A DNA stretch of 64,000 nucleotides, taken from Azolla caroliniana. Lineage: Eukaryota > Plantae > Polypodiophyta. This document shows, one piece after another, positions 265 to 37,895 of the stretch (position 1 is its first letter; each line of letters begins with the position of its first letter). Made by a program: the position numbers and the translations under genes. The stretch covers positions 372,001 through 436,000 of the forward strand of contig JBHGNT010000005.1 in the NCBI GenBank assembly GCA_043228905.1, written 5' to 3'. The notes under the pieces were generated by a model that saw nothing but the letters and a program-made list of their open reading frames with translations, searched no databases and had not been told where the DNA came from.

Positions 265-740
265 GGTAGATTGAAATTAGTGTATTGCAGTCCATCCAAA
301 AGACACTATTTTGTCTGATTTTCTCACCAAGAAAATACACACACACACACAAGTGGGCTGTTTCATTTTCAAAAAAGTATTGGTGTAAGATTTAGTCTCA
401 TCATCTTCTTCTCCTTCATCATAAGCAGAATCAGCAGCGTCGTCATCGTCTCTGTGTGATCGATCTTTCACACACACTCACACGAATCATTCAAAGATAA
501 TATTGACAATCTAAATCAGAGAAGAATCCGTAAGCCATAACCTAAATGTCCTGGTCTCTGCAGAAAGTTACATATGCGTAGACGAAAATCTATGCATATA
601 TGAATATATATATAAAGAAGCAATGGCCTAAATCCTATCTATCCTAGAACAAACTGAACTGATCTGATCGATCTTTTATTTATACTCGCTTTAAAGCTCT
701 ATTTCTTTCTTTCTTACTTCTTCTTTTCCGTTCTTTTCTG

Positions 741-10068: not shown

Positions 10069-10197
10069 GAGCTTGGGCTAGGCTATTTGTTTTGTCCTGA
10101 GAATTAGGATTAGGTTTTTCTTCTTCTTTCGCTTGGAAGTTTTTCATTAGATTAAGCTTCGCATTGTGCGCAGAGTCATCATAGCACGGAAAAACGT

Positions 10198-13100
10198 ATG
10201 GACATGGAGAACTCTGTAGAGAACATGTATTTAAGTAGAGAGTCGATGAAGGATCAGAAGAATAAGAAGGAGAAGAAAGAGAAAGGATCGAAAAGGAAAG
10301 CTGGAGAATCTCCATTAGGTTCTAAGAAGAAAGCTTCTAAGGTTTCTAAGGTGGAAGCAGAAGAAGGGCAGAGTGAGAGGGAGAGCGAAGAAGGGAGTGA
10401 GATTGTTAACAATCCCTATTTAGTGAGCAATTTCAGAATCTCAGAAGGACTGAAGCAGAAGTTAAAAGCGAAAGGAATAGAAGCTCTCTTCCCTATTCAA
10501 GCTCTCACTTTTGATGGAATCTTTGAAGGAAATGATCTCGTTGGCCGAGCTCGCACTGGCCAGGTACTTGTTTTTCTCATCGAACGCCTATGAGTTCTCC
10601 TATTTCTCTCAACTGCGCACACACTTTCTTTATTTCTCTAAAATGCCTCTAAGCTGTCGTGATTTCCTCTAAATGCCCCTCGTCACCCCCCTTAAAGAGA
10701 GAGGAAGGACATCGTCGATTGGCCATATAATTGATCAAATAGCATGTATAATTTCTTGAGAGTTGTTGACCGAGGGCATTTGAGGAAATGGCAAAAGTCT
10801 AGAGGCATTCGATGGAATATAGAAAAAATTGTGTATTTCCAGGTTTTGTTCATTATATTTTCCAAATCTATATTTGTAGCTCATTATTTAAGAATCGGTT
10901 AAATACTTCTTTTTTCTGCATTCGCTTACATTTGTTGGCCTTTACCTATCATAAAGCTTCTTGTGTGATTTTGCCTGAAAGATATTTTTGTACGTAATAA
11001 ATGTTATTGTTAAATATATTCTCGTTTTGCATATATTAAAGAAATACTCTTCTTTGTTTCCATTTTCATATCCATTCATATATCGAAGAACTTACACTAT
11101 CTGTGTTGCCGTTACATACAAAAAATAGGATTTTACTGACCTTACGTACATGTGAGAGCTTTTCTGTATATTATTATTCACGTAACCATTGATTGCTTAA
11201 TTTCCAGATTTATATATTTGTAGCTCATTATCCATTGACGTTTCTACATATTGAATAGAGGTTTATCTGTTTACACATGATATGCATACATGGAGGTGTG
11301 AAATGATTGTTACTTGTATATGTTTGTTTTGTATACATTGGAAGCGGCATCGTTCAGTTCTGCCTCGTTTTTTGCTGCCATGATGACAATCATCTGTCTT
11401 TTTAATGTAAAGAAAGTCATTAATTAATTAGAACATATAGAAATCTAGACTGTTAAAGGTGAATCAAACAGCTACCCATCTGACAATGTGCAAAAGATAG
11501 CATTGCATTTATCAAAATGCCCAAGTGGCCTACTTGAAGTGATTTGAATTTACTGGTCTGTCAATGCAAAGTCCCACGTGATGCATTTCAACTTTGGGAT
11601 TTGGTGTGCACATCACGAATGAAGCAGATCTTCCTTATCCATAAAGTAGCGAATATATAGTGAATGATGAGTAGAAGAAGTTGATATATTATAGCATTAG
11701 GATAAAGTAGTTTTTTATTAAACTTGTAGCTGGATACGGTTTCTTCACCCAATCATATAGTTCGTAGTGAGGCCAAGTTCATACCTTTTGGGCATGTAAC
11801 CAGTGTGCTTTGTGCATATTAGAAATGATCAAGATGTAAAACATCACTGAGGCAGACTGTCAAAATTATTCATAGGGTATTAGAGAATAACACAAATGGA
11901 GCTAGTCTTTATATAACGAAGAACCCCAAGTTTTGCATTCAGGTGGCAATGCCTACTTAAATAAACTCTAGTAATGTAGTTGAATATCTTGTTGACACTG
12001 TTATTGAATCATAGAGTAACCACTTGCTCAAGGTATTTTCCTTATCATGCATGTATTAATAAGGCAATTCCGTCATATAAGAGCTTCACTATGTCGTCTG
12101 AATATGGATTTGCTATTTTGGCCAACCGATCAGAACTTGATGATGTGAGATAATTACAGGGAAAAACTTTGGCGTTTGTCCTTCCTATCCTTCAATCGCT
12201 TAGTTTAAATGAGAGCTTCAAGTCTACCAACAAGCAGTATGGCAAAGCTCCCAGTGTCCTTGTGCTTGTCCCAACACGAGAGCTTGCTAAACAGGTACAA
12301 ATTACTAGCTACTTTCATCTATTTTGATAGATTGTGTTTGGCCAACAGTAGATGGAAGTTATGTATATAGCTAACTTAGCAACCATTGAAGTAGGTAATT
12401 GTTCATTCAAAACAGTTTGCTTTTGTAGGTGCATGCAGATTTCGAGTATTATGGAGGTGCATTTGGTCTTAGCACAGTTTGTGTATATGGTGGTGCACCT
12501 TATGGGCCACAACAGAGTGCGATGCGTAAAGGTGTTGATGTGGTCGTAGGCACTCCAGGTCGTGTCAAGGTGACTATAATGAATGAAGTCACATTTAGAA
12601 ATAGTGTTAACACACAAAATTGACCAACTAAAGACTGCTGTTTTGTGTGGTGTAGGATCATCTGGAAAGGGGTAGCTTGAATTTGAAATCTTTGAAATTT
12701 CGAGTTCTGGATGAGGCTGATGAAATGCTTAACATGGGTTTTGTCGATGATGTTGAAACTATTCTTGGTAAGGACCCAAGATATACTTCTACTTAAGTGA
12801 TGAGAGATGTATCTTTATGGATATTTGGCTGTGTAATGCTGATATTGAGACGTATGAGATTCCAGTAGAATATCTGCATGAAAGTATTCTATTGTTTTGA
12901 TGTGGGTATGCATGTATTATTCTAACAAGGCACGTGACGCCATTTTTGAAATCAGTCTTACCATTCTGTTTATATCTACTTTGTGGCTATATGAACTTAT
13001 CATTCAAATGCAGGGTCTATCCTATCAATCATCCTTTGACTCTCTTGTTTTCATTGCTTTATAGGTTATGGTGAAGATGTCACTAAGGTTCAAACATTAT

Positions 13101-16100
13101 TATTCAGTGCAACAATGCCTGATTGGGTGAAAAATGTAAGTTTGCATAATATGCACGGATTTGCTTGAATAAGGGTTTTTGTTACTTAAGTATTTCTTGA
13201 TTAGTTTCTCTTGTAACATTGCTGTGACTAGTTTTTGGTGTTACCTTCTACAAGTATCTTTTGATAATATTTGATGGAGTTTCTGGAATAAAGCTTTTCA
13301 TGCTACTTCTATAAATATGTTTTGATCAGTGTCTCATGTTATTTCGAGATGTATGTTGTGATTATTTTTTCATGCTACCTTTGATAATTGTCTTTTGATT
13401 AATCTTTCAGATTGCATCAAGGTTCTTTAAAACTTCAAAGGAAACTGTGGATTTGGTTGGGGATGAAAAAATGAAAGCAAGTTCAAGTGTTCGACACCTT
13501 CTACTCCGATGTATGAGATCAGCTCGGTCTCAAGTTATTCCTGATATCATAACATGCTACAGCAAGTATGTATTCTTTATTGCTCATAAATTAGCTTGTT
13601 CTTAAATATCCCTACTTGGGTGATAATGATTTTGTATGATAGCGGTGGTCGCACTATCATTTTCACCGAGACAAAAAATGATGCTTCTGAGCTCGCAGGC
13701 TTATTGCCTAATGTGTCTCGTGCGTTGCATGGAGATATTGCACAAGCACAGCGTGAGGTAATTATATATATAACTTGCTTCTGCCTTTTCAAGTCACTCT
13801 GCTTTGGCTTTCTTCTAAGAAGCCTTTCTTTTCAGGTTACTCTTTCTGGGTTTCGTTCTGGAAAGTTTTCAGTGCTTGTGGCAACAGATGTGGCTGCCCG
13901 TGGTCTCGACATTAATGATGTGCAACTTGTCATTCAGGTAACTTTTATATCTAAATTCCATTTATTTGACATATATTAATGAAGTGAAACATGTGAAGAA
14001 ATGCAACCTTTTCAATGAGGTAAATGTTGTAGCTGCCTCATGTTAAAATAAATATACGGATTCTGTTGACTTGAGTGTATGTCTCATCACAGTGTGAACC
14101 ACCAAGGGATGTTGAGACTTATATTCATCGTTCTGGCCGAACAGGAAGAGCAGGTAATGTTCCTGACATATTTAATGAATGAAGTCAACTCTTATGCTAG
14201 ATTAGAGTGACCTATATGCCTCTCAACCATGTGGATTAGGTAACTGCATTCTTAAATATTAGTGGGAGATCATGAACTGTGTGACATTTAAATGAAAGCG
14301 AATTTATGCTAGTTTAGATTGATTTTGTGTAATGTAATCCTAACAAGGCGTTCTTAGAAAGACAAACCCCTTCTTATTTCTACTTGGTTATGAGGGATTG
14401 TGTTAAATCGGAATGAAGTTCATTCTTATGCTATCTTAAGTTGGCTTTTGTGTGTGCTGATTTTGAACATCTCTCTCCTCTCTCTCTGCCCCCCCCTGCC
14501 CCTTCCCCCAAGCGAGGCCCAGACCTTCTCTATTATGGATGGAAAGTTCATAAGTTATGTTAACTTGGAATGAAGTTGATTCCTATTCTAGCTTCGGTCA
14601 ACTTTTTAGTACACGAAATCATAACAAGTTGGAATGCAATCTTCGTGGCAAGCACGTTATTCTTGTAGTACCACTAGAAGATCATGAATTGTGTTCAATT
14701 GTTCTATGTACAGGTAAAACTGGTATCTCTGTGCTCTGTTTCGATCGTTCAAAAGAATATATTATACCCAAGATTGAGAACAAGGCTGGTTTCAAATTTG
14801 AGAATATATCTGCACCACATCCTAGTGACCTTGCTAAATCATCTTGTGCAAGTGCTATTGAGAAAGTGATGGAGGTCTCAGACAGGTAAGGCTTCATTCT
14901 CATATTCGTTCTTCATGTAATGTGTAATTGATTTATAATTAGCATGGTTCATGTCTGTTTGAAGTCAAATGGAATAATAATTCTCAAGTTCTTCCTTGTT
15001 CAGTTTGCTCCCCATATTCCGAGCTGCAGCAGATGAGCTATTGCAAAGGAGTGATCTCTCTCCTTCAGATCTCTTGGCCAAAGCACTTGCCCGAATTGAG
15101 GTTTGTATCCATGTACTTTATTAACTCGAATCTGTGCATAATTTGCTTAACTTCCAGTTGGAAGAAACTGGAGCAAAAGTGATTGGACATAAATAAATTT
15201 CTACGAGATTCCTAGAAAAAGGGTGACATTCTCTCATAATATTGTATCATTTCATGCATCAAAGTAAAACTTAGCTTATTGGCACAGGAATATTTCTCGA
15301 ATACTCAGAAATATCAGAGTAAGTGTTCATATTTTATGATTGAAAGGAGTTAATAGTTTCTCTATGATATTTTACCAGGGCCATACTGATGTAAAGAAAC
15401 GATCATTATTAACGAGTCATACCGGTTTTGTCACTGTCAAACTTCAGTCTGGCAAGCCCTTCTATACACCAACGTATGGACAACAATGCTCTCATCATAT
15501 AAAAATATTCCTGAATGACTGATGAATTTAATAATTATCTTAGCATATGATGACCCTACTCTTCTTCTAATGGTGGACATTGTTCTATAGATATGCTTTC
15601 AATTGTTTGAAGAGATTTCTACCAGAGGATACTGTTGAGAAGGTAAATGCAATGTCGATAACAGCCGATGGGTTAGGTGCTGTCTTCGATGTTCCATCTG
15701 ATTTGCTTAAGACGTTTCTTGCGGGTATATATTCTTGAACTCTCAAATCACTCTTGGCATTTATCATCTAAATCCTATTTCTTTGTCTCTCTTTCACAAT
15801 CATAATCGTTTTTAGTTACTCTTGAAATGTAATATTTAAAATCTGTCTTTGTAAGGTATTGATATTGTTTTCTTTGTTAAGAATTTTGGGTCTCAAGTTG
15901 TCAACTGTTAGTACTTGAATTTTATTGGAAAACTTGGAACCTATCGTATAGCTATTTTTGTAAAGTATAGTCTTTTATTTTTGGATCTCTTCCTCTGCAT
16001 AGGCTTCGGATTTATCATCCAAATCCTATTTCTTTGCCATCATAATCGTTTTTTGTGACACTTGAAATGTAATAGCTGAAATCTTTCTTTTGTAAGGTAT

Positions 16101-20900: not shown

Positions 20901-23262
20901 TCAATGTGTTCCACGCCATTCATTAATTGCGGATCTCAACGATAAATTCGAAATGAGATCTTTGTGAGTAAGTCTGAGATTGGTCATTGGTGAATTGTTA
21001 TGGTTCCGAAGCCAAGCCTTAATGGGATCACGTTCGTAAGTGAAGCCATCAGCTGCAATGCAAGGGTCCTCCATGATCTCCTGTGATAAGATATTATCAA
21101 AAAGATTACTTGGATCAAGTGTACCATCACTATATAAATAAAATATTTTAGTTCATTGGCAAGTAGAACAAAACCTGGGTAATTGGACATAAGAAGTAGC
21201 TTGGAACACTTTGTTCACTCCCATGTGGTGGTTGGGGGGAGATTTGGTTCTCATGAGCCATTATTTCACCCACAATAGCTTTGATCTTTTCCAATGTCTC
21301 CATCAATTTTTCCATCCAATCATCTTGATTCTTCACCCTCAATTCTACGAGTTCTAAACTTAAACAAGCAAGTTCCATGGCTTCGACAAGAGGCCATTCC
21401 CCTGCTGAGACATCTAGAATGTTGTTGAATTGGCCATTATCCAATGCTTCACCCACGAAACCAACAACTTGATTAGCCGGCAAGCCAGTCAAGAGCCGAA
21501 GCATTGCAATTCCGAGGGCATGTGCATCAGATTCATGATCTATCGAGGCTAGAGGCTCAACAGTTCCGATGTTTGATAATCGAGAAAATAATTTGGCTAT
21601 GCCGACATTGCCGATTTTGCTAACGAAGCTCTGGTCTAGGAAAATGTTCTTGAGGCTGAGATCGCCATGTGAAATTTTCTCAGGGAGAGAATGAAGGAAT
21701 AACAATGCGGTCGTGACTTCAAAGCAAATCCTGAATCTGACATACCATGGCAAAGGAGGAGCTCCACTTTTACGACTAAGATGGTGCTCAAGGTTACGAT
21801 TCGACATGTACTCGTACACAATGGAAGTGTTATTAGGGCAAGCACCCAACATCATCACAATGTGCGGGTGATGGATGCGGCTCAAGAGGCCTACCTAGAA
21901 GTTTCCATCAAAGACAACATCAAAGTGTTTCCCAAACTAACACCCACATTAAAACTTGTGCCTCCTTTTATTTACAATTTTTAATTAAGTGCAATTGACA
22001 TTGGAAACATTGATATGAGTGAAACCTTGGAAAGAATATTAATCTCTAAAATGTCCTCGGACAATATGCATGCTACTAGTCAATACAACGTCATCCTCAT
22101 CATCACATTGCATAGAAATAATGCAAAATTGAAATGTTGGAATGGAGTTTGTGAAATGCAGTCTTTGAGATACGCTAATCATGTCCAACTTGACATACTT
22201 ATTATAGGCACATTCTATAAGAGTAAGGAGTGAAGTCAGATTTTGGACCAAGAGTGAAAACTAGTGCATTCCCATGGTCTTGTACTACCCACGACAATCA
22301 AAGTGCAATGCCATGACCTTGACACTACTTTGCATAAATGCTATCCTAAACAATGGAAATCGAGAAAGATTTGGACCCCATCCGATGGGATATGATTGAA
22401 GTAAAACACATCAATTTTTGATCCTAGCATTGCTTACCTCGTTCCTGAAGGTGTCACGACCATCAGATCCATGCAGATCAAGGACCCGGATCACAACTGG
22501 GATGTGATGCAGTTCTCCTTTGTAAACAAACCCCCATTCATCAGTTTCGAGCCTTTGTGACACATGGAAGTTGTTGCTTGCCAAAACAATCTCTTGGGAG
22601 CTATACTCAAAGAAGTACTTCTCTTTACCCTTCTTTATGGCCTCTTCTTTCTCCAAATTGACCTTGAAAGCCTGTTGTTCCAATTCAATCCTTTGATTTC
22701 TCTCATTAGAAACCTTCTCCTCCTCCACTTGTCTGAGTCTGGACTCTGTCAAAGCTCTTACCTCGGCTTCTTTCCTTAATCGGACCTCTATTACAAGTTT
22801 TTCCTCTACCTCCTCTCTTCTTTGAGTCTCTCTTAAAGCTGTCTCTTCAGACCTGGATCTAAAAAAACGCTCCGTTTCTAGGGTTTCCTTGCATTCTTCA
22901 AGGGCACGGACAGCTTCCTCGCATCTCTCTTCTTGAAATGATAATTGTCGTTCTGCAAATTCTACCTCCACAATGTAACTTCCAAGCGTGGATCGAAGAT
23001 TGTCAAGAGAGATTTGAGTCTGTCGATGGCTGATTATCTCGTTGGATAGCTCTTTTTGAAGGGATTCGTGCTTTTTATTGAAAGCCTTCAACAATTGGAG
23101 GAAGAGAGAGAAGTGCAAGGTCCAGAAAAGGGAAGCAGAGATGGAGGTCTCATGATTACGCTTGTTGTGTGAGTTATGGTGGCTTGGGCATGGCATGAAT
23201 AAAGGATCAAACCAATAGTTATCAACAGAGCGTGCAGGATTTGGGCTCTCATTGGCCATCAT
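20901..23262 (-). CDS. Coiled coil-pseudokinase-U-box protein (PUB33/PUB35-like family), about 574 aa, no USP domain
   Basis: Exons 23262-22438, 21894-21175 and 21080-20901 join in frame with GT-AG introns. U-box VPSYFLCPITQ|EIMEDPCIAADGFTYERDPIKAWLRNHNNSPMTNLRL...NLSLRSAINEW. Kinase fold with degenerate catalytic motifs. The start codon is uncertain. Confidence 0.88.
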
Positions 23263-24471
23263 ATCAGGTCAAGGAAAGTGATCAGAATGAGGATGATGAA
23301 TGACCATGGCCATATGGCTTCTTTCAGAGAAAGGGTTGACATTTTCTCTAAGTGGTAGGATGTAATATGTACTAGTGAGAAGAAAAAAAATATAAAGTAA
23401 AGGTCTCATAATATTCTCTCCTTTTGCAAGGGATCATTCAATTATGTATTCAAATTAAAAGATTGGATTGTACCATCCATATGGTCTGGCAATAAAAAGT
23501 TCCACACCCAAAAAGATGTATGTAGTGAGTCAATCAAACCAACGTTAGGGGATCCAATCATCCATGCTGGGAACTTTATGATATAACCAAGGTTTCCCAT
23601 GGCTTTAAAAAGGTAATCTTTTTCCCTAGATTTATCCCAAACTTATGAACTTTCAATTTTGATCATGGCAAAGGTTTTGTTGCGCTTTCATATTACGAGA
23701 CTTTATACACCCCCGGCCCCTGTGGTTTAAACGTGGAAAAAAAACGAACTAGATCAAATACTTATGGGCCCCCAACACTTTGATGACGAGAGATCAAGTG
23801 TGCTGTTTTTGTATTGCGTCTACTTTGATGACGAGAGATCAAGGTTTCCGTGTTGATGGGCCTCTCTATGAATAAAATATGTACAAAAAATAATAATCGG
23901 GTCAAGAGGCTAGGAGCATTTGAATTCTATGTCAAATGAGTACAAGACTAGATTATCGTGGCACATTGGTGAAATGGTGATATCTTTCCACAAATCGTCT
24001 TATTTATGCTCTGTCTCTCCCCCCAACAAGTGATTATTCTCAACAACAAAACTTGGATGTGCTTTTTACATCCAATCCAAATGTTTATTTTCCTAGATAC
24101 AATTTTTTGCCTTTTCAATGATGTATTGCTTCCTCTACCTGCGAATGTGTCTACCCACTACTTGACAAGTGGAAAATCCATTTTATTCTATTGAATACAT
24201 GTATGAATATTCCTTGACAATCAGGTTCAAATATAAATATTTTCGTTGATAATAAGTTTTTATTGTTGGGGAATGTAATGGGTACTTGAGGTCAATCCCA
24301 CCAATTAAGGAATCCAAGTGGAAGTCAATCATAGGCTATACTTAAAAATGTACAACAATTACAATCCCTAAATAGAGATGAGAATGTTAGTCGTAAAAAA
24401 CATTACTTCACATTTTGGTAACCATGATTAACAAGGTGTACATGTTTCTTAGGAGTTGTTGCAACCCATGA

Positions 24472-24664
24472 GGATCCACAAAATAGACATACAACATTGC
24501 GTGAACCACACACAAATATAACATAAAAGTAGACCTCTAGATCACTTGTGAACAAATGTGTCAATATGGATCCACAAGTAGACATACAACATTGCGTGAA
24601 CCACACACAAATATAACATAAAAGTAGACCTCTAGATCACTTGTGAACAAATGTGTCAATATGG
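24472..24664. repeat. Near-perfect direct tandem repeat of about 96 bp in the divergent intergenic region
   Basis: ggatccacaa..tagacatacaacattgcgtgaaccacacacaaatataacataaaagtagacctctagatcacttgtgaacaaatgtgtcaatatgg twice. Confidence 0.93.
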
Positions 24665-25682
24665 TATCTAACAAGTTGGGTTGAGGATGACCCTAATCCT
24701 TGACATCTGACATTGTCGTCTCATACTGAACAAGCATGAGGTAGCCTAAATATATAGTACAAGAGTTTGATCAATCTAGAAACCAAATCAAGTGCATTTC
24801 CATGCCTTTGAAGTGCACCCACATTATATGGCCATCCTGGTGGACCATGTATCATTCCATAAAGGTGAGCATTTTCTATACAAACGTTAAGCAAACCAAA
24901 ATAAATCAACGATCTTGATGATGAGAGAGTATCAACCAACAATGAGATCCTCTCCTCCCTCCATGTCTAAAAGCAAAATTTTGGTTCCAATTGGTTGCAA
25001 GATATGAAGGAACTCTTTGGGAGATCAAATGCATTTCTTTCATTTTCTTCTTTGGATGATGGAAACCACATTCAGGATTCCTTTTTTCCCCCCCCCCCTT
25101 GCATGTGGACAATAATCCTGCACATTCCCACCACAAAATAGTTCCTCTTCACAATTACAATGTGGGCTTGATATTGCAACATTTTCGTTAGTAAAAGTTT
25201 TCGAGCTTAAGATGGAGGCTTGGAAGGTGGGTGGGGGGTTGACTAGGTGCGGGTCCGGAAGGTTCCGGAGGTTTCCGGACAACTTCTTCTGGACACGGAC
25301 AGATAGACACGGAGTGTGCAGACCGTGGAGAAAGAAATGCTTTGTGGATGGATGGCCTTTTGTTTTGTTTTTGTGGTTAGGCGTCCTTTTCACATTTTTG
25401 CATTTATTGAAGTGAAGCTGGACTCTCCTCCCCTTTCCTGTTCCTGTCCTATCTATTCTATTATCTAATAGCAGCAGTAAAAGCTGGAAGGAAAAAATCT
25501 TCCTGTCAATTCTGCGTGTTTGAAGTATGTAAATAAATGAACGCAGAAGAAGAAGAAGAAGAAGCAGATGAAAGGAAGAAGGAAGAAGGAATTAATAAGG
25601 AAGAAGAAGAAAGGAAGAAGGAAGAAAGGAAGAAGGAAGAAATAAGGAAGAAGGGAAGAAACAAGGAACAGAATAAAGAGTC

Positions 25683-28600
25683 ATGGTGAAGAATATTATA
25701 GGGGTTGCTGTGGGTAAAGGTCCAAGTGGGTTGCAAGCTTTGAGATATGCTGTAGAGGATGAGGAGATCTTGGAAGGTGGAGATATGATGGTGTTCCTTC
25801 TTCATGTTTACCCTCCGGTGCGTTGGGTCATTGGCCCATGTAAGTCTCTCTCTCTCCCCCTCACTTCTCTGGTTTTTCCCTTTTGCTTGTAGATTTGTCT
25901 TGTAAGTCTAATCTCTCCCTCTCTTCCTCTTTGCTTTTTATTTCTTACATATATGTTTTGCGTGTCACGAGAATTTGCTCTGTTTTCCACGAGGAATTTG
26001 CTGTTTTGGCCTATTTAACTTCCCTGTTTCATTTAGAAATTTGTTCTGTGTCTATTGAAGTTCCCTGTTTCGTTAAGGAAATGCTCTGTTTTAATTGATT
26101 AGCTGCACTAGTTCGTCCACAAAGTCCTCTGCTTCATAAAATGTACTACTTTTCATGAAGAAATTGGTCTTTTCCATGAAGGAAAGGCTATTAAAGAGTT
26201 CAGATTGTTCAAGAAACTGGCCTGTTTTATCAAGAAAAGGTGGCGGATTTCTTTGAATTATATCAAAGGAAAAAAAAGCCTATAACGAATTCCAATGGAT
26301 GATTTAAACTGCCAATGAAACAGACACACACACACACACTTACCACTTGATTTCATGCTCTTTAATAGCATAATTGTTTGGTTTTGTGAAATGTAGTGGG
26401 TGATCGTGTTCGAGCCGAACATGCAAGTGCCGCAACCATCAAAAAGTTCAAAGATGAACGTAACCGAAAAGCTGAGAAATTAATCAATCAATATAAAAGC
26501 ATATGTGACAACAAAAAGGTAAAATCAAAATTGTACATACATGAGATGATGATCCATAAAGGTAATTAAATTAATGTCTAAGGTTGAGACCTTATAAAGC
26601 CATGCTTGTTTCTTCCAATCTGGTGTCTCAAGAGCTCAAAAAAGACGAGCCTCTTGCAATTGTGTTGTGTTGAGATGCTAGAAAGCCTTGATTTTCTTTC
26701 AGTGTGTTGTCTTAAGAACTTATGAACCCTTGTTTTTCCTTCAATGTGTTGTGTTTAAGACCTTTTAATACCATGTTTGTCTTCTAATGTATTCTGTTCA
26801 GATTTTATGAATCCACGTTTCCATTTCTTCCAAATCTGAAATAACCTATGTTTTTGTTTCTTTTTTCAGGTCAAGACAGAAGTGCGTTGTGCTGAAGGTG
26901 AAGAAGTCCAGAAGGAGCTGGTGGAACTAATATCCAAACTTGGTCTGACTAAGCTTGTACTAGGAACATCAAAGAAGAATTTGCTCTCAAGGTATCAAAT
27001 TAAAATAGTCCTTTTCTTTGTAACTGATGGCTACCCTTATTCTTTGAAAAGAATCAAAAGATGACCTTTTCCTACATACAAGAAAATTGTAGCCCTAAAA
27101 AAAACTGTAAAATTTCTTGAAATATGATTTTAGGGCTTTAAAAGGAGAAAGCATTGCTACATATGTGGCAAAAAATGCGCCAAATTTCTGCACTGTTATA
27201 GTTATATCCAAAGGAAAGATTATATCTGTTACTGATGCAATGGATAGCTCATCAATTTCCCCATCGAGTGATACCAGTAGCATAAGGAGTGAATTTCGGA
27301 CTGAAGGTATGTGCATATAGCATGCTGCAACATATTGCCTTTCCTTGTAGAATTATGAAACTTCTTTGAGGTTTGAATCCTTTTGAATCGCTGTTCACAT
27401 TTGAGCTTTGGGATTTTCGTAAAGAAGGATAAAACTCATTTGAGCCTTGGGGTTCCTTTATAGAATGTTAAAACTTAAAACATTGTGGTCTATTTTGCAT
27501 GATGCAGATGACGCACTAAGTGAGTATGGAGGCACACGGAGTGATGAAGCTCCTTATTCTCAAATTGGGTTTTCGCCAATGGATTACTCGATGAACCCAA
27601 CTACAGAGTGGATTATTCCTTCAATTCCTCATACACGAAATGAAAATAATAGACTAAGCAATCCTCCTATTGTCCCAATGATCGATACTGGGTCATCACA
27701 TGGTTCGCATAGCCTAGAAGCTGCATCATACCAAGACATTTATGTAGTACCTGATCCCCAACTAAGTAGAGGACATAGCAAGGCCCAATTGATCCATCAA
27801 ATGTCATCTCATGGGCGCATCGATGCAGTTATGGGTGAAGTAAGAATATTTCCCTTCTTGCATATCGATCATACATTTTATTTCTAAAACATTTCAGCCA
27901 ACTAAAAGTACTTTGTCAGGCCTGTTAAGATACATATAAAACACATCAAGCTTTAATAATCTTCAAAATTTATCTCAAATGTTTATTGAATACAAGTCAA
28001 AAAGTTATATGAAAAAACTTGCTGACCGACTAGAAACTGAAGAAAAATAAAGAAAACATTGATGTGGATGGTTTACATACCATGTATACTAATATAGATA
28101 ATGTATTCGCCCTTGTTGTAACTGTCTGTCTTCCCAGAGTGTTGTGGCACACAGTGTTGAACTTTTGGAAAAGGAGCTCACTGAAGCTAAGATGTCTGTG
28201 GAATGGGCTCAGCGAGAAGCAGAGCAACAATCGAAAAGCATAACCAATGCGGAGCGAATTGTTGTGAATGCGAAGAAAATGGTATATGTGCATTTAATCT
28301 TTAATATTGACTAGATGGTATTACCCTTGAAGCAATATGCCATGAGTTAATTCATACTGGTGACAAATTCAGTACTCTCCATGTTGGTGACAAATTCAGT
28401 ACACCCCCTGTTGAATAATTTACCAACATACCCCTCAGTTTACAGAGTTTTCTCTCTACAAATCTTCTTATCTCTTATCGTCCCTCTACAGAAAAATTTC
28501 GGTGAGAGACTAGAGAAAAGAGAGGAACTGCAAAGTGAGGTGTATTTTGGGAAGTTGAGACGGTGAGGAGGTTTTATGGAACCTCATAGGGTAGAATTCC

Positions 28601-30522
28601 CCCTAATTTGGAACATAAAACTAGCTTCTTTGGTTTGTAGACTGAGAGAGAATCTACCCATTTTGTGTTTTGGCAGATTACGGAGGCCGAAAATAAAAGA
28701 AACAATGCTTTGAAAGATGCCCAGATGGCAAAGCTCCAATCATTGGAAGATGCGAGAAGACTTGAAGAAGCCATTGTAGCACTCCAAAAATCCTTGAAAG
28801 AACAAGAAATTTTCAAGAAAAATAGCAAGATTACTATTGATGAATTAACAAGTAGACTAGATGCTTACGAGAAAGATCTCAACATCACGCAGAGAGAGGC
28901 TGAGAGAGTGACGGAGAGATATCGAGAAGCCTTAACAAAGCTAGAAGAACTCACAAAGGCATTGGAAATAGAGTCACAGAAACGAAAAGATGCCGAAAGA
29001 AGAGCTGTGGAGGAGTTTCTTGCAAAGCAAGAAGCACTCAAAGCTTTGAGGAAGCTGCAACAAAAATATACTGAATATACATTTGAAGAATTAAAAGCTG
29101 CGACTGATGATTTTGATGAAAACAACAAGCTGGGTGAAGGAGGGTATGGACCTGTATACAAAGGCAAATTACTTCACACCCCGGTTGCCATTAAGGTTTT
29201 GGCTCGAGAAGGAGTCCACGGCCGAGAAGAGTTTCAGAGAGAGGTAAAATATCTAGGGATCGAGTTAAAGAATTCCATTTTATCAAAGTCTCGTTCCACG
29301 TAGGCCAAGTATCGAAAAATATTCTTGAATGAAATTGAAGTTCATAGCCCATTCTTGAATGGTGATGTATTGTCTTCTAGAAAAGTTTCTAGGACATTCT
29401 GGGATGTCCTAGCTTAGGAAGTTTCTAAAACATTCTAGATGATATTCCCTAGCTTATAGATCATTCTAGAATCATTCTAGCATGACGGTATTGCCTAGCT
29501 TATAGATCATTCTAGAATCATATTTGCCTAAGTTATAGCGATGTTTCTAGGATATTTTTGAGAATGATAATGTGGAGTTAATAGTACCTTACAAGCTTCT
29601 AGAGAAGTCAAAGGACGTTTTTAAGCTAGACCATAGGTGCACATTTCAACTCCTATTCTTGCCATGGTTGCCGCAAGTGACAATCACCCCATTGTGAGAG
29701 ATTTACTTTTTTCCTTCTACAATGTACAATATACACTAAATTCTCATCATTTTAAGCAAATGTGTTTTTTTTTTTGCTTAATTACAGGTAGAGCTGCTTA
29801 GCCACATCCATCATCCACACTTGGTGATGCTACTTGGCGCGTGCCCAAAGGAAGCTTGCATCGTATATGAGTATATGTCCAATGGTAGCCTTGAGGATTG
29901 TCTCAAAGGAAAAGGTGGAAGGCCACCGCTTCCCTGGTATGTCCGGTTTCGCATTTGCTTCGAAGTGGCAACTGCATTGTTCTTTCTCCACTCTCGACCT
30001 GAACCCATTGCCCATCGCGACCTCAAACCTGGGAACATTTTACTAGATCACAATTATGTTAGCAAAATTGGTGATGTTGGCATAGCAAAACTAGTTCCTC
30101 CCAAGAATGATAACCTCTCTTATAGTATAACTATGTATAAGGAGACAGTGCTCATGGGAACTCTTGCTTACATGGATCCTGACTACCAACGAACTGGCGT
30201 TGTCAGTTGTGAGTGTGATGTATATGCACTTGGGATCGTTATGCTTCAACTCTTAACTGGACGGCCTCCACTTGGCGTTGCAGTTTTGGTTGAAGATGCA
30301 ATTGATAATAACAGACTGGTTGACATTCTTGATAAATCAGCTGGTGACTGGCCGATAGAAGATGCGAAAGCGCTTGCTGATTTGAGTTTGGAATGTATGG
30401 AGCCACGAAGAAAGCATCGGCCTAGTTTGGAAATGAGAGTGCTTCCTTTTCTTGAAGAACTTTGGGGGAATGCGGATTGTGTTGCATCAAAAATTGGCTG
30501 TATCGGATCATCTGCCTCATGA
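25683..30522 (+). CDS. USP domain-coiled coil-Ser/Thr kinase (RLCK-IX / PUB35-like), about 783 aa, no U-box
   Basis: Exons 25683-25839, 26397-26518, 26870-26991, 27134-27306, 27508-27839, 28138-28281, 28677-29243, 29788-30522 give a continuous 2352-nt frame. USP: IIGVAVGKG...ALRYAV...LLHV...KLVLG. Kinase: GEGGYG, VAIK, HRDLKPGN, DVG, GTLAYMDPDY, DVYALG. Confidence 0.92.
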
Positions 30523-31936
30523 CCAATGTCTCCCGAAACAAACCCATTAACATCATCATTGGATTGTTAAATCTCACATGTGATATATTTGTAACAAAGA
30601 ATCCCTTGATAAAAAATCTTTTAAAAGATTAATCATTCAACCAAATGTTTGTAATAGCTAACTATCTGATTGAATGTTTATAACAAATGGCTGACATAAA
30701 AGCATTTTTTTTGTTCTTTTGCCTAATTCTTGTGGATTATGAGAAAAATGACCAGATGACTGAATTGTATAGTGAAGCCAAATATTTGTTGGAAACTATG
30801 ATTCTAAGCACGTGGTACTGAATCAGAATTATTGCTTGGTTTTGTTATCAGTGTTACATTGTAAAGTTGATGCTACTATTTTCACTTGTGTGGTGGAGAG
30901 AATGCCACATATGATCTCAAACTAAAGTTATGAGTAGTTTACATATTGACTAACGTGCATGTGAAGGTGATTACCTTACTCAAGAGTCAATGATAGAGGG
31001 GTGAGAAGTTGTGGTGGCGGTGTGTCTTTTCTTGTAGGTGTCCCAACATATTTGGTTAATGTTTGTCTACTAGTGTTACAATTTTCTATTCTTTGCAGCA
31101 TCATTCCACTTGAATATGATTGCACCAATAGAGCATGATTTGATGTTTATCGTGAGTGTATCATGGGGTAAGTTGTACAAATAGTGTTTCTACATGTCAT
31201 CAATCAAAACTATCAGTATTTGTCCAAGCCAAAAGGAAGGATTTAGCTAGCATCCTAAGGTTGGGTTGATGGGCAATGTGTTTTCCTATCCTTTGCTTTT
31301 AGCCACATGCATGTGGAATCTTAAATTTCACAACTATTTTGAGAGAGAGAGAGAGAGAGAGAGGTGATGACGATCATAAGTTGGTGTCCTTTGAATGCAA
31401 GTATATGGGCTTTTGTTACTTGTGTGTAGTTGTTGAGTGATTCTATGTTTGAAGGAGCTGGGTTTGTAGAGAAGGTGGTTTCCACTTGCAAAAGAGAGAC
31501 AAAAATAGAGCTTATATGGTTATACCTTATTTGGTAAGATTGTTAATCGAAGGCTTGGAATTTAAAAGAATATAAAAACCTCCTTCCCTCTTACTGTCTT
31601 GCTTGGGTGAGCCTTGTGTAAACACACACATTATCCTTCAACTCTATGTGAGGCTGGCATGGTACACAATCTGACAAGTAGTGAATGTAGGGAACCCACA
31701 AGACGTCAAAACTCATTGTCAAAACAGTCATAGATTAGCAGAAAACATAGGCAAACCATGATGGGCAAATGGAGACATGAAAACTCATCTTTGAAATAAC
31801 CAAACCCATTTCTAAGGGCTTTGCAATGGCATCAAAATGCGAGTCAATACTATATCCTGTTGCCTTCTATGGCAAGAAGAAGAAGAAGTGGTTGTAGCGA
31901 TCGTTGAACTGTATCTTTTTCCTCTCACTCAAACCA

Positions 31937-33781
31937 ATGTCGAAGCCATGGCTACTCGCCCATGTCAGACACTACATGTGTTCTTCGAATTTCAAGACGA
32001 TAAATTCACGCATCTTCCCCAGACAAAACAGAGATTTCTCCATTTCCCCTTACATCGACCAGTTCACTTCTCAAACACTTTATGAGAAATTGAAGACAAC
32101 TCACTTCACTGTTTACAGATTTATGTCCGAAAAAGCTCGAAATTCGGATGAAGAGATGGATCCGGGTAACGGACATTCAAATCCCACCAGAAATGGAGAC
32201 CTTTTAAAAGAGATTTGCAAAGCTACAGAAGGATATAGATGGACTCAACACACAGAAGATCTCCTCAAACCTTATGAAAACAAGATTTCTTCTCATCTTG
32301 TCGCTATGGTGATTCTTCAAAAACCGCTTGTCATGGCTAGACGCTTCTTTGAGTGGGCAGATCAAAAGGTACTTCTTGATTTCTATGCTTACCATGCTCT
32401 ATTAAAGAAAATGGGCGAATATAAACAGTTTGCCGAGATGTGGTCTTTGTTAGAAACCATGAAAAGACATGGATGTGAGATCAATTCTACCACTTTTTGC
32501 ATTATCATTAAAGCTTATGGGGCAGCCGGTATGACCCATGAATGTATGGTAGTGTTCTCGAGAGCACATCAATTCGATGTTGATCTCAATGTTGATATGT
32601 ATACCACTCTTCTCAGTATGCTTTTTAAGGCCAAAATGATCAATCAAGCTAAGTATACATTTGAAAGAATGTTGCAAGATACTTCGAATGTGGATTCATC
32701 AGCTTGGGCTGCAATTATCCGCGGATTTGGTACAAATGGATGTGTCCGCGAAGCTGAAAAATGTTGGGATCGAATGATTGATAGTGGATTCAAGCCTAAA
32801 TTAGTTCATTACAATTGCCTTATTGAAGGGTTCTGTGAATCCAAATCGATGAATAAGGCATTATTTACACTAGCAGCAATGCAAGATGAAGGTTTGAAGC
32901 CAAATGCATACACATTAAACCCGATTCTTGGAGCTCTTTGTAAGACAGGTAGGTTTTCTGAGGCTCTAAACATATTCTTTAGCATGAGAAACTTTTGTGC
33001 ACCGAATCAAGCCACTTGCAACATACTTTTGGAAGGGTTGTTCTTGAATAGAGATGTGGAGAAGGCATGCGAACTCTTTGAATTGATGGAAGAGGAAGGA
33101 TTAGTTGATACTAGGAGTTATTTTCTTATCACATCAGGTCTGAAGAAGGCTAAGGAGACAGGTAAGCTAATGTCTGTATGCAAAGCACTGCATGCTAAAC
33201 ATGGTAATACTTATGAAGTGATATTTAATGCACTTCTTCAATGCTTGTGTGAGGGCCAAAGTATGGATGAAGCTGTAGCATTTTTCAATGGATTGAAGCA
33301 TCCGAATGTTGCATCATTTGCCATGATGATAAATTGTTATTGCAAGTCAGGAAAGCTTGATGAAGCTATGGTGCTTCTCACTGACATGGATAAGAGAGAT
33401 TGTGAGCCTAATGCATTTTGCTATACCCCCCTCTTAGGGGCAATTTTGAGAGCTGATAGAATAAGCGATGGGTTAAAATTATTTGATGAGATGGTTCGAA
33501 GAGGTATCGAGACAAATGATATCACTTGTGGGTTTCTTCTTAGGAAATTAGGGCAGGCGAATATGGTGGATGGTATTATTAAGGTTTGTAGTCATGTCAT
33601 GGATAACAATATATCTATCAAATGGCATTTTTTGGGTCCCTTGATAAAGAGTTGGAAGAATACAGGAAGAGCAGAAGAGGCTGATACACTTCTAAGAGCA
33701 TTGGTGAGACAAGGATGCATAAATGAACAAAGTTTAAAAGAGCTAAAATCATCACCAGAAACATTTATAGGATGGTCTTAG
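31937..33781 (+). CDS. P-class pentatricopeptide repeat protein, probably organelle-targeted, single exon
   Basis: Tandem 35-aa PPR motifs (e.g. HYNCLIEGFCESKSMNKALFTLAAMQDEGLKPNAY; SFAMMINCYCKSGKLDEAMVLLTDMDKRDCEPNAF). First ATG at 31937; the track start at 31904 is TTG. Confidence 0.93.
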   Translation: MSKPWLLAHVRHYMCSSNFKTINSRIFPRQNRDFSISPYIDQFTSQTLYEKLKTTHFTVYRFMSEKARNSDEEMDPGNGHSNPTRNGDLLKEICKATEGYRWTQHTEDLLKPYENKISSHLVAMVILQKPLVMARRFFEWADQKVLLDFYAYHALLKKMGEYKQFAEMWSLLETMKRHGCEINSTTFCIIIKAYGAAGMTHECMVVFSRAHQFDVDLNVDMYTTLLSMLFKAKMINQAKYTFERMLQDTSNVDSSAWAAIIRGFGTNGCVREAEKCWDRMIDSGFKPKLVHYNCLIEGFCESKSMNKALFTLAAMQDEGLKPNAYTLNPILGALCKTGRFSEALNIFFSMRNFCAPNQATCNILLEGLFLNRDVEKACELFELMEEEGLVDTRSYFLITSGLKKAKETGKLMSVCKALHAKHGNTYEVIFNALLQCLCEGQSMDEAVAFFNGLKHPNVASFAMMINCYCKSGKLDEAMVLLTDMDKRDCEPNAFCYTPLLGAILRADRISDGLKLFDEMVRRGIETNDITCGFLLRKLGQANMVDGIIKVCSHVMDNNISIKWHFLGPLIKSWKNTGRAEEADTLLRALVRQGCINEQSLKELKSSPETFIGWS

Positions 33782-34499
33782 ATGGTCTACCTTTTTCTCC
33801 TGGAATTAATACTTAAATCCTCTAGGATAGATGGATATGTAAGCTAATAAAATGATCAAAACGGCTTTGGCTTTGATATTGGCCCAAGCTAGGCAGTTGA
33901 GCTCATTGAAATTCATTCAATACAAAAATCGAAAAACCTTTTCAACAATAATTCATTCAACATTCTTGAACTGTTGTTTATTTTTTCTTGCATGTAAAAT
34001 ATTGGGAACAAAAGCAGTGGTTCCATGTATAACCAAAGTGATTGGATTGGAGAGGTACTCTGAACTTTGACAAGGTTTTTAACAAAGAATATCCTTGTCA
34101 AAAAAAATATTGTTTCTCTTTTTGATAATTGTCAAATATATGGGAGTTCAATTTCAATTGTTTCAGATGAGAGTAATTATAAAAATCCGAACCCTCTTGG
34201 TGTTTTTGGATTGCCATTGGTATATTTGGTTCAAAATAATAACTTTCATCTGAATTTCTGTAACCAAATAACAGTGTTATTTAGTTGCTGTTTACTCTTT
34301 GCAATTCATTTTGTTCTCTAAATGACGGGGTCATATACAGAAACAGTAAATCAATCGGTAAAAGAGTGTTCAAAGCACCCCATTGTTCACATTGAAAGTG
34401 ATCCCAATTAAACACAACAAACTCACACAACCTTCACCTCTCTACGTATATTGGTTGGCTGGATGCATGTGAAATTAGAATTATTTTTTCCTAAAGGTT

Positions 34500-34830
34500 C
34501 ACAATCTATGTTCTTTGTGCAGTAAAATCATCCACTACCTTTGTATGTAGCAGAAGGCCTATTTGTGTAGTAATTATCCAAGGACTTGGAGCAAAACCTT
34601 GAGGACATATGACATGTGCGAACAAATGGTGTTCTCGGAACCTAAGGTAACTCACCACTACCTTAATTATGACATCTTGAGACATTGTCAAGTCTCTATT
34701 GGTGAGGCCAAGCTCTTTTCTTTCAAATACCTTTGCATCAATATTCAGGTGATATTCAATGGCATGCAACACTGATGGTATCAATATCCACCATATAACA
34801 GAAGGTAACATTTAGTGGTATGAGTTTCCA
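34500..34830 (-). mobile_element. Possible degenerate Ty3/gypsy reverse-transcriptase fragment
   Basis: LRFREHHLFA-HVICPQGFAPSP resembles the LREHKLYA...HVIS.EGI..DP end of gypsy RT with a deletion; short and eroded. Confidence 0.3.
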
Positions 34831-35755
34831 CCTTGTCTTGAGATTTTACATATGCAATGCAATGTATTACGTACATAGTACCCTCATTAATTATGTATTG
34901 TTATTGTAGATTTTTACCTTGTCTTGAAGCTTTCCACATGCAACCCATTGTATTTACATGGATTGTTCTCAAAATTATCGTATTTTATTTTTAGAATACT
35001 TTGGATATTCTACACGTATTCTACAATTTAGAACTACCATTTAAAAAAAAATTAAATATTATTTTTGAAAAAGAGTTTAAATTTTAAAAAGTATTTAACA
35101 TATTCTACATGTATTTACGACATTTTATATATGGAATATGCATTCTAAGTATTAAAAAAAAGGGTAGAATAGATTTAGAGTACCTCACATATGTATCATA
35201 TGCTCATTGCTAAGTATTCTACAACTATAATTACATGAAAAAATATGTAATGGCACAAGCGAAAGCTATGAAAACTGAACATTAATAGTGCATTCACTTG
35301 TCCGTAGCCCATTTACAACAACCTTTGACTTTCATGTATTGAAAGCTTAATTTTCTACCATTTTACCAGAACATTCCTCAACTCTTAATGATGTCCTTGT
35401 AAATACCTAACTTTCATCATTTGACTTGTAAAAATTCTTACTCCCCAAGTATCAGAGCCAAATTTCCATCCTGTGTGCATGTGTGTGGTAACAAGATGTT
35501 GTTGTTCTTGTGCCGATTATTTCAAAGAGAGTTATTGCAAAGCAAGTTTTTATTATTGACGATATTAGCATGGCTGGTATCGTAAGTTCCATTTCGACAC
35601 ATTTCTCTATACTTATCATTCATGAAAGAGAAAAAGAAAGAACCCAGAAAACATGTACAAGTGCTTCTTTCTGTATGTACAATTCCATTTGGTTTTCATA
35701 AGGGAATGCTTTGTTTTGCCTCCCCATCTACTAGAAAGTGGATGCTTGGATGTTG

Positions 35756-37895
35756 TCATCCATCCAAAAGCTTTGGTTTCATTGCCTCCTTTTTTGAGTG
35801 GACTTGCCCCTTGTTTATAACAATCACATCACAAAATTCTGGAGCGTTTTTTGTGACAACTGATGCAATAGGTTGCCCTTTGAAAGCCCTGAAATGTCAT
35901 GTTTTCACACAATACGTTATGGTGGCTTGAAACAGTTTTTCCATTGAAAGAGAAGTTTTTTTAGATGTTCACTACTTTTTTAGTCGACTTCGAGACGAGA
36001 TTCCAAGAACCAACATGGGAATGCATCGTCTGCTTATCTCATCAACAAGTGCCTTCTCCACTACCTCACCCTCTGTACATATCACTTCACACTTTACCTA
36101 AAATACAATAACCAAATGAAATAATCGTCATAATCAGCTTCGAGAAATATGCATGATGTGTTCATTTTGCATGCTCGAACAGAAGACTTTTGCATTATAT
36201 TTCAAATAATTATGCCTAAGTATTCGTTCTATAGATTTGTTCATTGCAATACTGAAGTGACAATAAATTTAACAATACATGGCTGAGGGTTACCATTCAA
36301 TCAAACTTTAGAATAAAATTAACTCAGCGTTGTATTAAGTAAAACACTTTAAACAATGTACATGCATTTCTTGGGGAGACATATTCTCAACTTCGTGGTG
36401 CATGCCTCTTTCTCTTCACACATTTGTTGATATTGATAAAGCAGTTTCTCAGTCTCCACGAAACGTTGTAATTTGCATTTGTTGACCATGTCAGGGCTGG
36501 CTTGTCCAATTGGAATGCTACTGCCCACTGCAATTTTTGTCAAATTTCACAACTAAGAGTGCCGGAAACAAATGAAAACAAAGAAATTACATACAAAGCA
36601 CAATGGGTCAAAATGCCTTGTTACACATTGACGAACTTGAGACGCTAGTTAAAGAAAGCAACAAAGTCATAGGGAAAACAATCTATAATCAAGTGTTATG
36701 TTTGTGGTTGATTAAAAATAGTCCCTATGAAACATTAACTAGAGTAATCATGTTTTGTTCTCTTTTTGAGACTTCTCAAGCTAGGGTTTCAAAAACAATA
36801 GTTTGCCTAGACGAGGCAATGCAAACCAACAAACTATGACCTAAATGCATGATGCCCCAAATAGCACAACTAGTGCAAGTGTCATTTATTCCTTGGATCA
36901 AAAGGGAAGAAACATTGCCAACAAATTAGCAAAACTTATGGCAAGGTAATTGGTAAGCGACTGTTGGAGCCTCACTACACATTTATACTATGTGTGCTCA
37001 CTCATCACGAGACTCTCATAACTCTCATGATCCACAGCAACCATTATTGCATTCACAACAAGGGTGCCTCGTTATAAGACTTATAGCTCTCCTATGTCAA
37101 ATAGCTAGCATCACCTCCCTCCACTTCATATCAATTTTTATTGCACCTCCGGTGGAAAGTTCCAAAACATATATGTCTCATATACCCCCACACCCAATCT
37201 ATCAACGTCCCATAAATTCTCGCCCCCACCCCCAACAAAAAAAAACAACACTCAATAGACCTATCTATCTATCCATAAATAAAGTGAGGTATAAGAGTGA
37301 GACTTTGATCTTGTCCCAGTTCATGTCAACCAATGTTTTTGGACTCAAAAACTCTACTCTGAAACGGTATAGGAGATAAAAAAATACTAGCAAGCCAACA
37401 AAAGCAACACATACGGATATTGTATCCCTAGAGACAAAGAGGGGGGAGAGAGATAGATTTTATTATCATCTTCGGAGGTCAAATATGATGTACGAGACCA
37501 AAATATTATCATGTAAGGAGAAGAGGATTTGAAACGATAACTTCCAAACTTTTTTACCTTACCATTAAGCCTATGTTCATGATATGTAAGAGAGAGAGAG
37601 AGAGAGACTTACATGGGGTGGGGACATAACGGATGGGTGATTGAACATGAAGGAGATGAATAAGGTGGTGGTGGCCATGACCATGGGACACTTCATTTAG
37701 ATTCTCCAATGCCCATCGGAGCGCTTGTGAGCTACTAGAGCTCCTCCCCACAGCCACGGCAACCTCCACTTGTGTCTCTACTTCATTTACTCCTGAAGCC
37801 CATCCATGTTCATCGCCACCATGTCTTCTCTGTCTTTCCACATTACTTGATGATGATGAACATTCCGCCTCTTCTACCACCTCAATCTCTTCCAT
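35756..37895 (-). CDS. Stand-alone universal stress protein (USP) domain protein of the kinase/U-box-associated type, about 219 aa
   Basis: Exons 37895-37613, 36527-36406, 36097-35976 and 35888-35756 (660 nt, in frame). VAVAVGRSSSSSQALRWALENL...LLHV...YVPTP, KLLYQYQQMC, VKCEVICTEGEVVEKALVDEI...LVLG, KNAPEFCDVIVINKG; TGA at 35758-35756. Requires a GC donor at intron 2. Confidence 0.85.

What the first reader, a model, noticed from the sequence alone, without database searches (positions are those of the whole stretch)
20901..37895. A USP-kinase-U-box protein apparently partitioned into three clustered genes with complementary domains
Known: plant kinase-containing U-box proteins (PUB33/35/52-like) carry USP, coiled coil, kinase and U-box in one chain. 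Seen within 17 kb: gene A (-, 23262-20901) is coiled coil + dead-looking kinase + intact U-box with no USP; gene B (+, 25683-30522) is USP + coiled coil + intact kinase with no U-box; gene C (-, 37895-35756) is USP only. All three have open, spliceable frames. A and B share a kinase intron position (NE|VGLL vs RE|VELL) and the peptide PPLPWYVRFRICFEV. B and C share three USP intron positions. Inference: a subfunctionalised multi-subunit module in which catalysis (B), ubiquitin ligation (A) and USP sensing or decoy function (C) are separated, with A and B possibly re-associating through their coiled coils.
Basis: partly seen in the sequence, partly recalled or inferred. Interest (0 to 1): 0.85.

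Follow-up and report, generated by a model that had tools for sequence, protein, structure and literature searches.

The report
Fern kinase–ligase gene split in two
Three neighbouring, spliced fern genes each carry only part of a known plant stress-sensor–kinase–ubiquitin-ligase protein; the outer two are likely the halves of one ancient gene that split, the middle one is a separate copy that lost its ligase, and the dead-kinase half likely regulates its intact relatives, a variation on a known family.

Summary
The three genes are real. A (574 aa) has a helix, a pseudokinase and a U-box; B (783 aa) has USP, helix and an intact kinase but no U-box; C (219 aa) is USP only. Public contigs splice all 12 introns, and A and C are under purifying selection. 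They are not a three-way partition of one gene. The genome keeps three full-length USP-kinase-U-box genes. One of them, D, shares B's helicase neighbour and is B's sister. An A+B+C clade is rejected (p=0.00055). The shared peptide and intron positions are family-wide. A and C lie on one strand in ancestral order, cover non-overlapping parts of the family profile and both fall beside the same full-length protein, so they are likely halves of one older gene; A's placement is weak. Each architecture has precedent in PUB-VI/RLCK-IXb, and an Arabidopsis pseudokinase:kinase heteromer (PUB32:PUB33) is published. Binding among A, B and C is untested. Verdict: new variant of a known family, moderate interest.

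The parts
20901..23262 (-). Gene A, 574 aa: about 57 residues without family homology, a helical region with a locally repeated 28-residue segment, a pseudokinase and a U-box; no USP. Exons 23262-22438, 21894-21175, 21080-20901
   Evidence: both introns spliced; dN/dS 0.34-0.45 against three related loci
20901..21080 (-). U-box exon of A, with the Pro and Trp columns as in full-length relatives
   Evidence: Pfam U-box 61.5 bits; alignment
23263..25682 (.). 2.4 kb between the head-to-head start codons of A and B; no relic of lost USP or linker exons; holds an 89-nt tandem duplication (24481-24664)
   Evidence: a shared promoter is inference only
25683..30522 (+). Gene B, 783 aa: USP, Ser-rich linker, helical region, RD kinase with intact motifs; the stop falls about 16 codons before the ancestral U-box intron. 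Exons 25683-25839, 26397-26518, 26870-26991, 27134-27306, 27508-27839, 28138-28281, 28677-29243, 29788-30522
   Evidence: no U-box match after B in the genome search or the intergenic scan
31898..33781 (+). Single open frame encoding a PPR protein, between B and C; unrelated neighbour that separates C from A
35756..37895 (-). Gene C, 219 aa: USP (kinase-associated type) only; exons 37895-37613, 36527-36406, 36097-35976, 35888-35756; the stop lies inside ancestral exon 4
10156..15735 (+). Matched exon span of a helicase gene whose duplicate lies just upstream of full-length gene D on G000:C22; the only shared neighbour found
   Evidence: (dS 0.77 over 556 codons)

Best explanation
A and C are likely the two halves of one ancient fern USP-helix-kinase-U-box (PUB-VI/RLCK-IXb) gene that split, B is a separate paralogue that lost its U-box, and A likely works as a kinase-dead ubiquitin ligase that binds intact-kinase relatives through its helix. 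Shown: gene structures, splicing, constraint on A and C, B as sister of full-length D, and rejection of an A+B+C clade. Inferred history: an early duplication left two full-length genes side by side. One split into C (USP) and A (late helix, kinase, U-box), losing the linker and early helix. A's kinase died and its helix grew by local repeats. A later duplication of the helicase-plus-kinase block gave B and D; D kept the U-box, B lost it, and no A or C copy remains near D. Inferred function, by analogy with Arabidopsis PUB32:PUB33 and PUB33 truncations: A supplies ligase activity to, or dampens, B and D. B signals as a kinase uncoupled from its own ligase. C would act as a free USP module that tunes USP-bearing paralogues. 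Rough odds by step: B sister to D with U-box loss 0.9; A and C older than the B/D split 0.8; A+C from one gene 0.55; A binds B or D 0.45; C acts on them 0.25.
For: D (G000:C22, 910 aa, 9 exons) is full length, follows the duplicate helicase in B's orientation, and has B's seven intron phases plus the U-box intron that A has. B+D are sisters in every tree: 94/95, 97/94, 94/92, 93/91, 92/86, 98/98, 97/98. A+B+C rejected, p=0.00055; a C-plus-A row with B rejected, p=0.0004, and with B+D, p=0.014. C groups with full-length P0168 (91/85, 86/87, 96/85), A does so on kinase plus U-box (64/77), and A+C together is not rejected (p=0.146). C covers profile positions 13-184 and A 500-976, without overlap, on one strand in ancestral order. 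In this fern subclade the genome searches found three kinases (A, B, D) and three USP genes (B, C, D), so A and C are the two unpaired halves. Constraint: A has 17 of 38 and 19 of 52 changed codons synonymous against L045 and L046 (p=0.001, 0.01), and C has 7 of 12 listed exon changes synonymous (p=0.008). An A-type dead kinase exists at 53% identity in another organism (P0007; 100/100 with A). Precedent: PUB32 binds PUB33 and lowers both its activities, and PUB33 lacking its N-terminus auto-ubiquitinates more (bioRxiv 10.64898/2026.02.10.704836).
Against: A is a long branch. Its place beside P0168 is weak (64/77, 77/64), and in kinase-only trees it sat with two Adiantum degenerate kinases (93/89) or was unresolved. 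A+B+D (p=0.23, 0.30), A+Adiantum GOP47_0021469 (p=0.46, 0.20) and A+B on kinase plus U-box (p=0.08) are not rejected; C+B+D is borderline (p=0.054). A's kinase core is closer to B (69-70%) than to D (63%). The P0168 grouping was named after the trees were seen, and P0168 is short-branched near the base of the clade, where long branches can fall. Moving B and the PPR gene between two halves needs a transposition, two inversions, or a tandem duplication with several losses, and no relic was found. B-D synonymous distance (dS 1.2-2.4; fourfold sites 0.55) exceeds that of the helicase pair (0.77; 0.44), and two other window genes had no match on C22, so the duplication is not firmly dated. Pseudokinase PUB32 showed no ligase activity in vitro despite a canonical U-box, so A may be a pure scaffold. 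The count for C rests on the 12 exon changes among 40 listed rows; 21 rows were not shown.
Confidence: 0.5

Rival explanations
1. A and C are independent truncated paralogues of an old tandem RLCK-IXb cluster. Each was kept for its own job (A as a ligase or decoy, C as a stand-alone USP protein), and the complementarity is a by-product of frequent domain loss in this family.
For: Domain loss is common: 9 of 20 Arabidopsis RLCK-IXb proteins have a U-box and two are pseudokinases; two rice USP-only proteins group with kinase-USPs. Three Ceratopteris proteins scanned lack a U-box hit, and two Adiantum proteins have degenerate kinases with U-box. Adiantum GOP47_0021464 (intact) and GOP47_0021469 (degenerate) are five locus numbers apart, on contigs of the same length. 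A with GOP47_0021469 is not rejected while C with it is (p=0.009).
Against: A and C do not overlap, share strand and order, and both fall beside P0168; two independent duplications and truncations would not predict this.
Confidence: 0.33
2. One reading: one USP-kinase-U-box gene was partitioned locally into three, and A, B and C form a multi-subunit module.
For: Clustering within 17 kb, A and B head to head 2.4 kb apart, spliced contigs of all three in the same runs; A's kinase core is closest to B within the genome; A+B on kinase plus U-box is not rejected (p=0.08); B and C share a 66-nt, 74% match across the end of exon 1.
Against: A+B+C clade rejected (p=0.00055); C+B rejected (p=0.016); B's sister is full-length D; B duplicates the domains of both A and C; the shared introns and peptide are family-wide.
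Confidence: 0.1
3. C and A are one transcript, with B and the PPR gene nested in a 12.5-kb intron on the other strand, or A and C are decaying remnants.
For: Same strand and ancestral order; dN/dS of A (0.34-0.45) is relaxed compared with B-D (dN 0.15, dS over 2 in the kinase).
Against: C contigs run through its stop into a 3' UTR (to 35302 and 35582), and A contigs run unspliced to 23200, into A's own N-terminus. Frames are open in three related loci, and synonymous changes are in excess.
Confidence: 0.07

Closest known systems
PUB-VI / RLCK-IXb proteins (Arabidopsis PUB32-35, PUB50-53, PUB61; tomato SlRLCK-IXb-1)
   Same: USP, long helix, RLCK kinase and U-box in this order; D, E and F of this genome have all four, and A, B, C are subsets.
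   Different: None of A, B, C has all four domains. In the trees they sit in a fern-only subclade, apart from the seed-plant PUB35/52-like proteins, which group nearer E and F.
PUB32:PUB33 heteromer (bioRxiv 10.64898/2026.02.10.704836; parts 1-5 of 8 of the text read)
   Same: A pseudokinase paralogue with a U-box binds an active paralogue and lowers its kinase and ligase activity; a coiled-coil contact is modelled at low to moderate confidence.
   Different: PUB32 keeps a USP region and lacks the catalytic-loop Asp. A lacks USP, keeps that Asp and has lost the glycine loop, beta-3 Lys, DFG Asp and activation segment. B has no U-box. Full-length PUB33 interacted more strongly than truncations, which weakens the analogy for truncated A.
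U-box-less RLCK-IXb kinases (11 of 20 in Arabidopsis; Ceratopteris KP509_12G007600)
   Same: USP, helix and intact kinase, ending before the U-box, as in B.
   Different: B's loss is separate: its sister D keeps the U-box.
USP-only members of the kinase-USP clade (rice OsUSP10, OsUSP41; PMC8355530, passages read) and class VII PUBs (USP, helix, U-box, no kinase)
   Same: Stand-alone USP derived from the kinase-associated type, as C.
   Different: A kept partner half on the same strand nearby was not mentioned in the passages read.

Membership tests
PUB-VI/RLCK-IXb (four-domain protein) | N-terminal USP domain | tested here: met
   Met for B and C by homology to Pfam-positive P0168; single exons score below Pfam's cut-off. 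Absent from A.
PUB-VI/RLCK-IXb (four-domain protein) | Long alpha-helical region before the kinase | tested here: met
   B complete; A holds the later part (profile 500-593) plus local repeats; C none. Judged by homology; no coiled-coil predictor was run.
PUB-VI/RLCK-IXb (four-domain protein) | Kinase domain of the RLCK-IXb group | tested here: met
   Best named hits of A exon 2 are U-box kinases of ferns and seed plants; A and B lie within that family in the trees. No other RLCK subfamily was included as outgroup.
PUB-VI/RLCK-IXb (four-domain protein) | C-terminal U-box in the same chain as USP and kinase | tested here: not met
   U-box in A only; no gene of the three has all four domains. 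They are derived members of RLCK-IXb, not canonical PUB-VI proteins.
Pseudokinase (gene A) | Loss of catalytic motifs | tested here: met
   Glycine loop, beta-3 Lys, DFG-position Asp and activation segment lost; catalytic-loop Asp kept.
PUB-VI/RLCK-IXb (four-domain protein) | Kinase activity (B) and E3 ligase activity (A) | not testable with these tools
   Motifs only; PUB32 shows that a canonical U-box can be inactive.
PUB32:PUB33-like heteromer | Binding between pseudokinase and active paralogue | not testable with these tools
   Needs co-IP or two-hybrid tests.
Gene fission product pair (A+C) | Non-overlapping halves of one ancestral gene | tested here: met
   Profile positions 13-184 and 500-976.
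Gene fission product pair (A+C) | Both halves orthologous to the same full-length gene | tested here: inconclusive
   Both beside P0168; C 96/85, A weak 64/77; A+C not rejected, p=0.146.

The most novel reading that the evidence does not exclude
A naturally split PUB-VI protein: the USP half (C) and the pseudokinase-ligase half (A) of one ancient fern gene are both kept and reassemble in trans with the ligase-less kinase B, giving a switchable kinase-ligase complex and a direct way to test what the USP domain of PUB-VI proteins does.
Probability: 0.17. Interest if true: 0.62.

Novelty: new variant of a known kind. Interest (0 to 1): 0.35.

Why it matters
PUB-VI/RLCK-IXb proteins are conserved targets of pathogen effectors, and the role of their USP domain and the cross-talk between kinase and ligase are open questions. 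This locus holds natural, long-kept versions of the truncations that were made artificially for PUB33: no U-box (B), no N-terminus with a dead kinase (A), USP alone (C), with an intact control (D) in the same genome. If A and C are fission halves that still act on B or D, they would show that these domains can regulate in trans. If not, the locus is an ordinary case of domain loss in a paralogue cluster.

Tried and rejected
Complex prediction for B exon 7 (residues 1-140) with A exon 1 (residues 55-225): no answer, score 0.05 against a mark of 0.34, alignments not used, controls not folded. A fold of A exon 2 gave a middling model (pLDDT 66.6) and was not searched further. Searches for stand-alone C-like proteins: 1 hit among 62 candidates, a 381-aa Adiantum model tied to GOP47_0021469, and 0 of 25 with C exon 1; these are weak negatives. 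My first idea, that C+A match Adiantum GOP47_0021469, was rejected for C (p=0.009). A pyrimidine-rich stretch in A's N-terminus looked like an exonised splice acceptor, but the profile places A's homology start inside the ancestral exon, so this was dropped. No relics of lost exons in five intergenic stretches. Glutaredoxin-like and RhoGAP neighbours had no match on C22. No run is on record as RNA. None of the 12 listed joints links C to A; contigs show presence, not absence. Contig depth cannot give co-expression. YN00 failed on saturated pairs. Complete models of E and F were not built; their pieces came from tblastn matches.
Full report
Observation. The window is G000:C5:372001-436000 of a 523-Mb plant genome. 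The closest named relatives of these proteins are from Adiantum, Ceratopteris and Pteridium, so the host is a fern; an Azolla-like small-genome fern is my inference. Spliced models are open: A 574 aa, B 783 aa, C 219 aa. A has a U-box (61.5 bits) and a kinase fold lacking the glycine loop, the beta-3 Lys, the DFG-position Asp and about 21 residues of the activation segment, with the catalytic-loop Asp kept. B keeps all kinase motifs and stops about 16 codons before the ancestral U-box intron. A genome search with A's U-box gave 9 matches: A, three family genes on C22 and C11, and five weak ones elsewhere, none after B. C is USP only.

Expression and constraint. Contigs of 4 public runs skip 11 of the 12 introns, and the first intron of C is bridged by loose ends in a second set of 4 runs, one shared with the first. 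The runs are not on record as RNA and most come from related organisms. Three metagenome loci (3 of 305 candidate stretches) hold A orthologues with open frames, dN/dS 0.34, 0.45 and 0.39; L045 and L047 are 99.7% identical, so they are not independent. Synonymous changes are in excess for A (17 of 38, p=0.001; 19 of 52, p=0.01). For C, 7 of the 12 exon changes among 40 listed rows are synonymous (classified by hand; p=0.008; 21 rows not shown). A dead kinase of A's type occurs at 53% identity in an unnamed metagenome fragment, P0007; whether that gene lacks USP cannot be seen.

The rest of the family. The genome has five family kinases among the scored candidates: A, B, D (C22), E and F (C11). 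D, E and F carry USP, helix, kinase and U-box. D follows a duplicate of the window's helicase gene in B's orientation, is 75% identical to B in the kinase, and has B's seven intron phases plus A's U-box intron. The helicase pair has dS 0.77, close to the Azolla whole-genome-duplication peak of about 0.8 (PMC6786969, passages). B-D distances are larger and only one neighbour is shared, so a segmental duplication is also possible.

Trees. B+D are sisters in all seven trees. AU tests reject A+B+C (p=0.00055), C+B (0.016) and A+B on the kinase (0.03), but not A+B on kinase plus U-box (0.08), A+B+D (0.23, 0.30) or C+B+D (0.054). C groups with P0168, an unnamed full-length protein (96/85 in the concatenated tree). 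A joins it weakly (64/77, 77/64), and A+C is not rejected (0.146). In the first kinase tree A sat with two degenerate Adiantum kinases, which may be long-branch attraction. The trees used 20 to 49 rows that I picked from the search hits: the fern proteins plus lycophyte and seed-plant outgroups, leaving most angiosperm hits out. Sampling lacks named Salviniales and tree ferns.

Fission reading. On a profile built from 16 full-length-type fern proteins, C covers positions 13-184 and A covers 500-976, with the linker and early helix absent from both and no relics in five intergenic stretches. C lies upstream of A on the minus strand, 12.5 kb away, with B and a PPR gene between them. One duplication and one split explains two unpaired, non-overlapping halves more simply than two duplications and two truncations. 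A tandem duplication of a block with complementary losses could give this order (inference). Independent origins stay open, because domain loss is frequent in this family.

Mechanism, inferred. In the PUB33 preprint (parts 1-5 of 8 read), the N-terminal region restrains autophosphorylation and ligase activity, the helix is a platform for partners, and pseudokinase PUB32 binds PUB33 and lowers both activities. PUB32 itself showed no auto-ubiquitination. By analogy, A is most likely a kinase-dead ligase or scaffold that binds B or D through its extended helix; B is a kinase uncoupled from its own ligase; C would be a free USP modulator. None of this is shown here, and D is as likely a partner as B.

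Comparison and novelty. Each architecture has precedent: U-box-less RLCK-IXb kinases, pseudokinase-U-box proteins, and USP-only offshoots in rice (PMC8355530, passages; PMC12803775, passages). Seven searches returned no paper on a fern cluster or a fission in this family. They cover open-access PubMed Central and bioRxiv only, and other listed papers were seen as listings. Supplements were not read; the family phylogenies in the supplements of the PUB33 preprint and PMC12803775 may show more truncated members. The new element is a probable, long-kept fission pair beside a U-box-less paralogue. Interest 0.35; new variant of a known kind.

Noticed in passing
window 36098-36405 (C intron 2): The intron uses a GC donor. 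A second, GT donor about 44 nt inside the intron is used in contigs of three runs and would shift the frame.
   Followed up: partly
window 25797-25862 and 37590-37655: B and C share a 66-nt, 74% match across the end of exon 1 and the start of intron 1, including a CT repeat that D lacks at this place; old homology or local conversion.
   Followed up: no
L009:2817-7254 (gene D, G000:C22): Full-length paralogue with His in place of Arg in the catalytic loop (non-RD, as reported for PUB33) and a GC donor at intron 3.
   Followed up: partly
window 3789-4631 and 7708-8637 (-): Two similar single-frame C3HC4 RING proteins 3 kb apart, with low-complexity Pro/Asn tails.
   Followed up: no
window 663-1916 (+): Glutaredoxin plus GRXCR-type C-terminal domain protein; 11 matches in the genome.
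   Followed up: partly
window 46748-47029 (-): RhoGAP exon of a long multi-exon gene to the right of C; one paralogue on C6.
   Followed up: partly
window 26463-29115: Runs X1 and X14 hold two versions of B's transcript that differ at many sites, as expected of a hybrid or polyploid relative.
   Followed up: no
P0013, P0174, P0006 (Adiantum capillus-veneris): An intact and a degenerate-kinase family gene lie five locus numbers apart, and a second degenerate kinase exists, so dead-kinase U-box paralogues may have arisen more than once in ferns.
   Followed up: partly
window 24481-24664: 89-nt direct repeat, 99% identical, in the stretch between the start codons of A and B.
   Followed up: no
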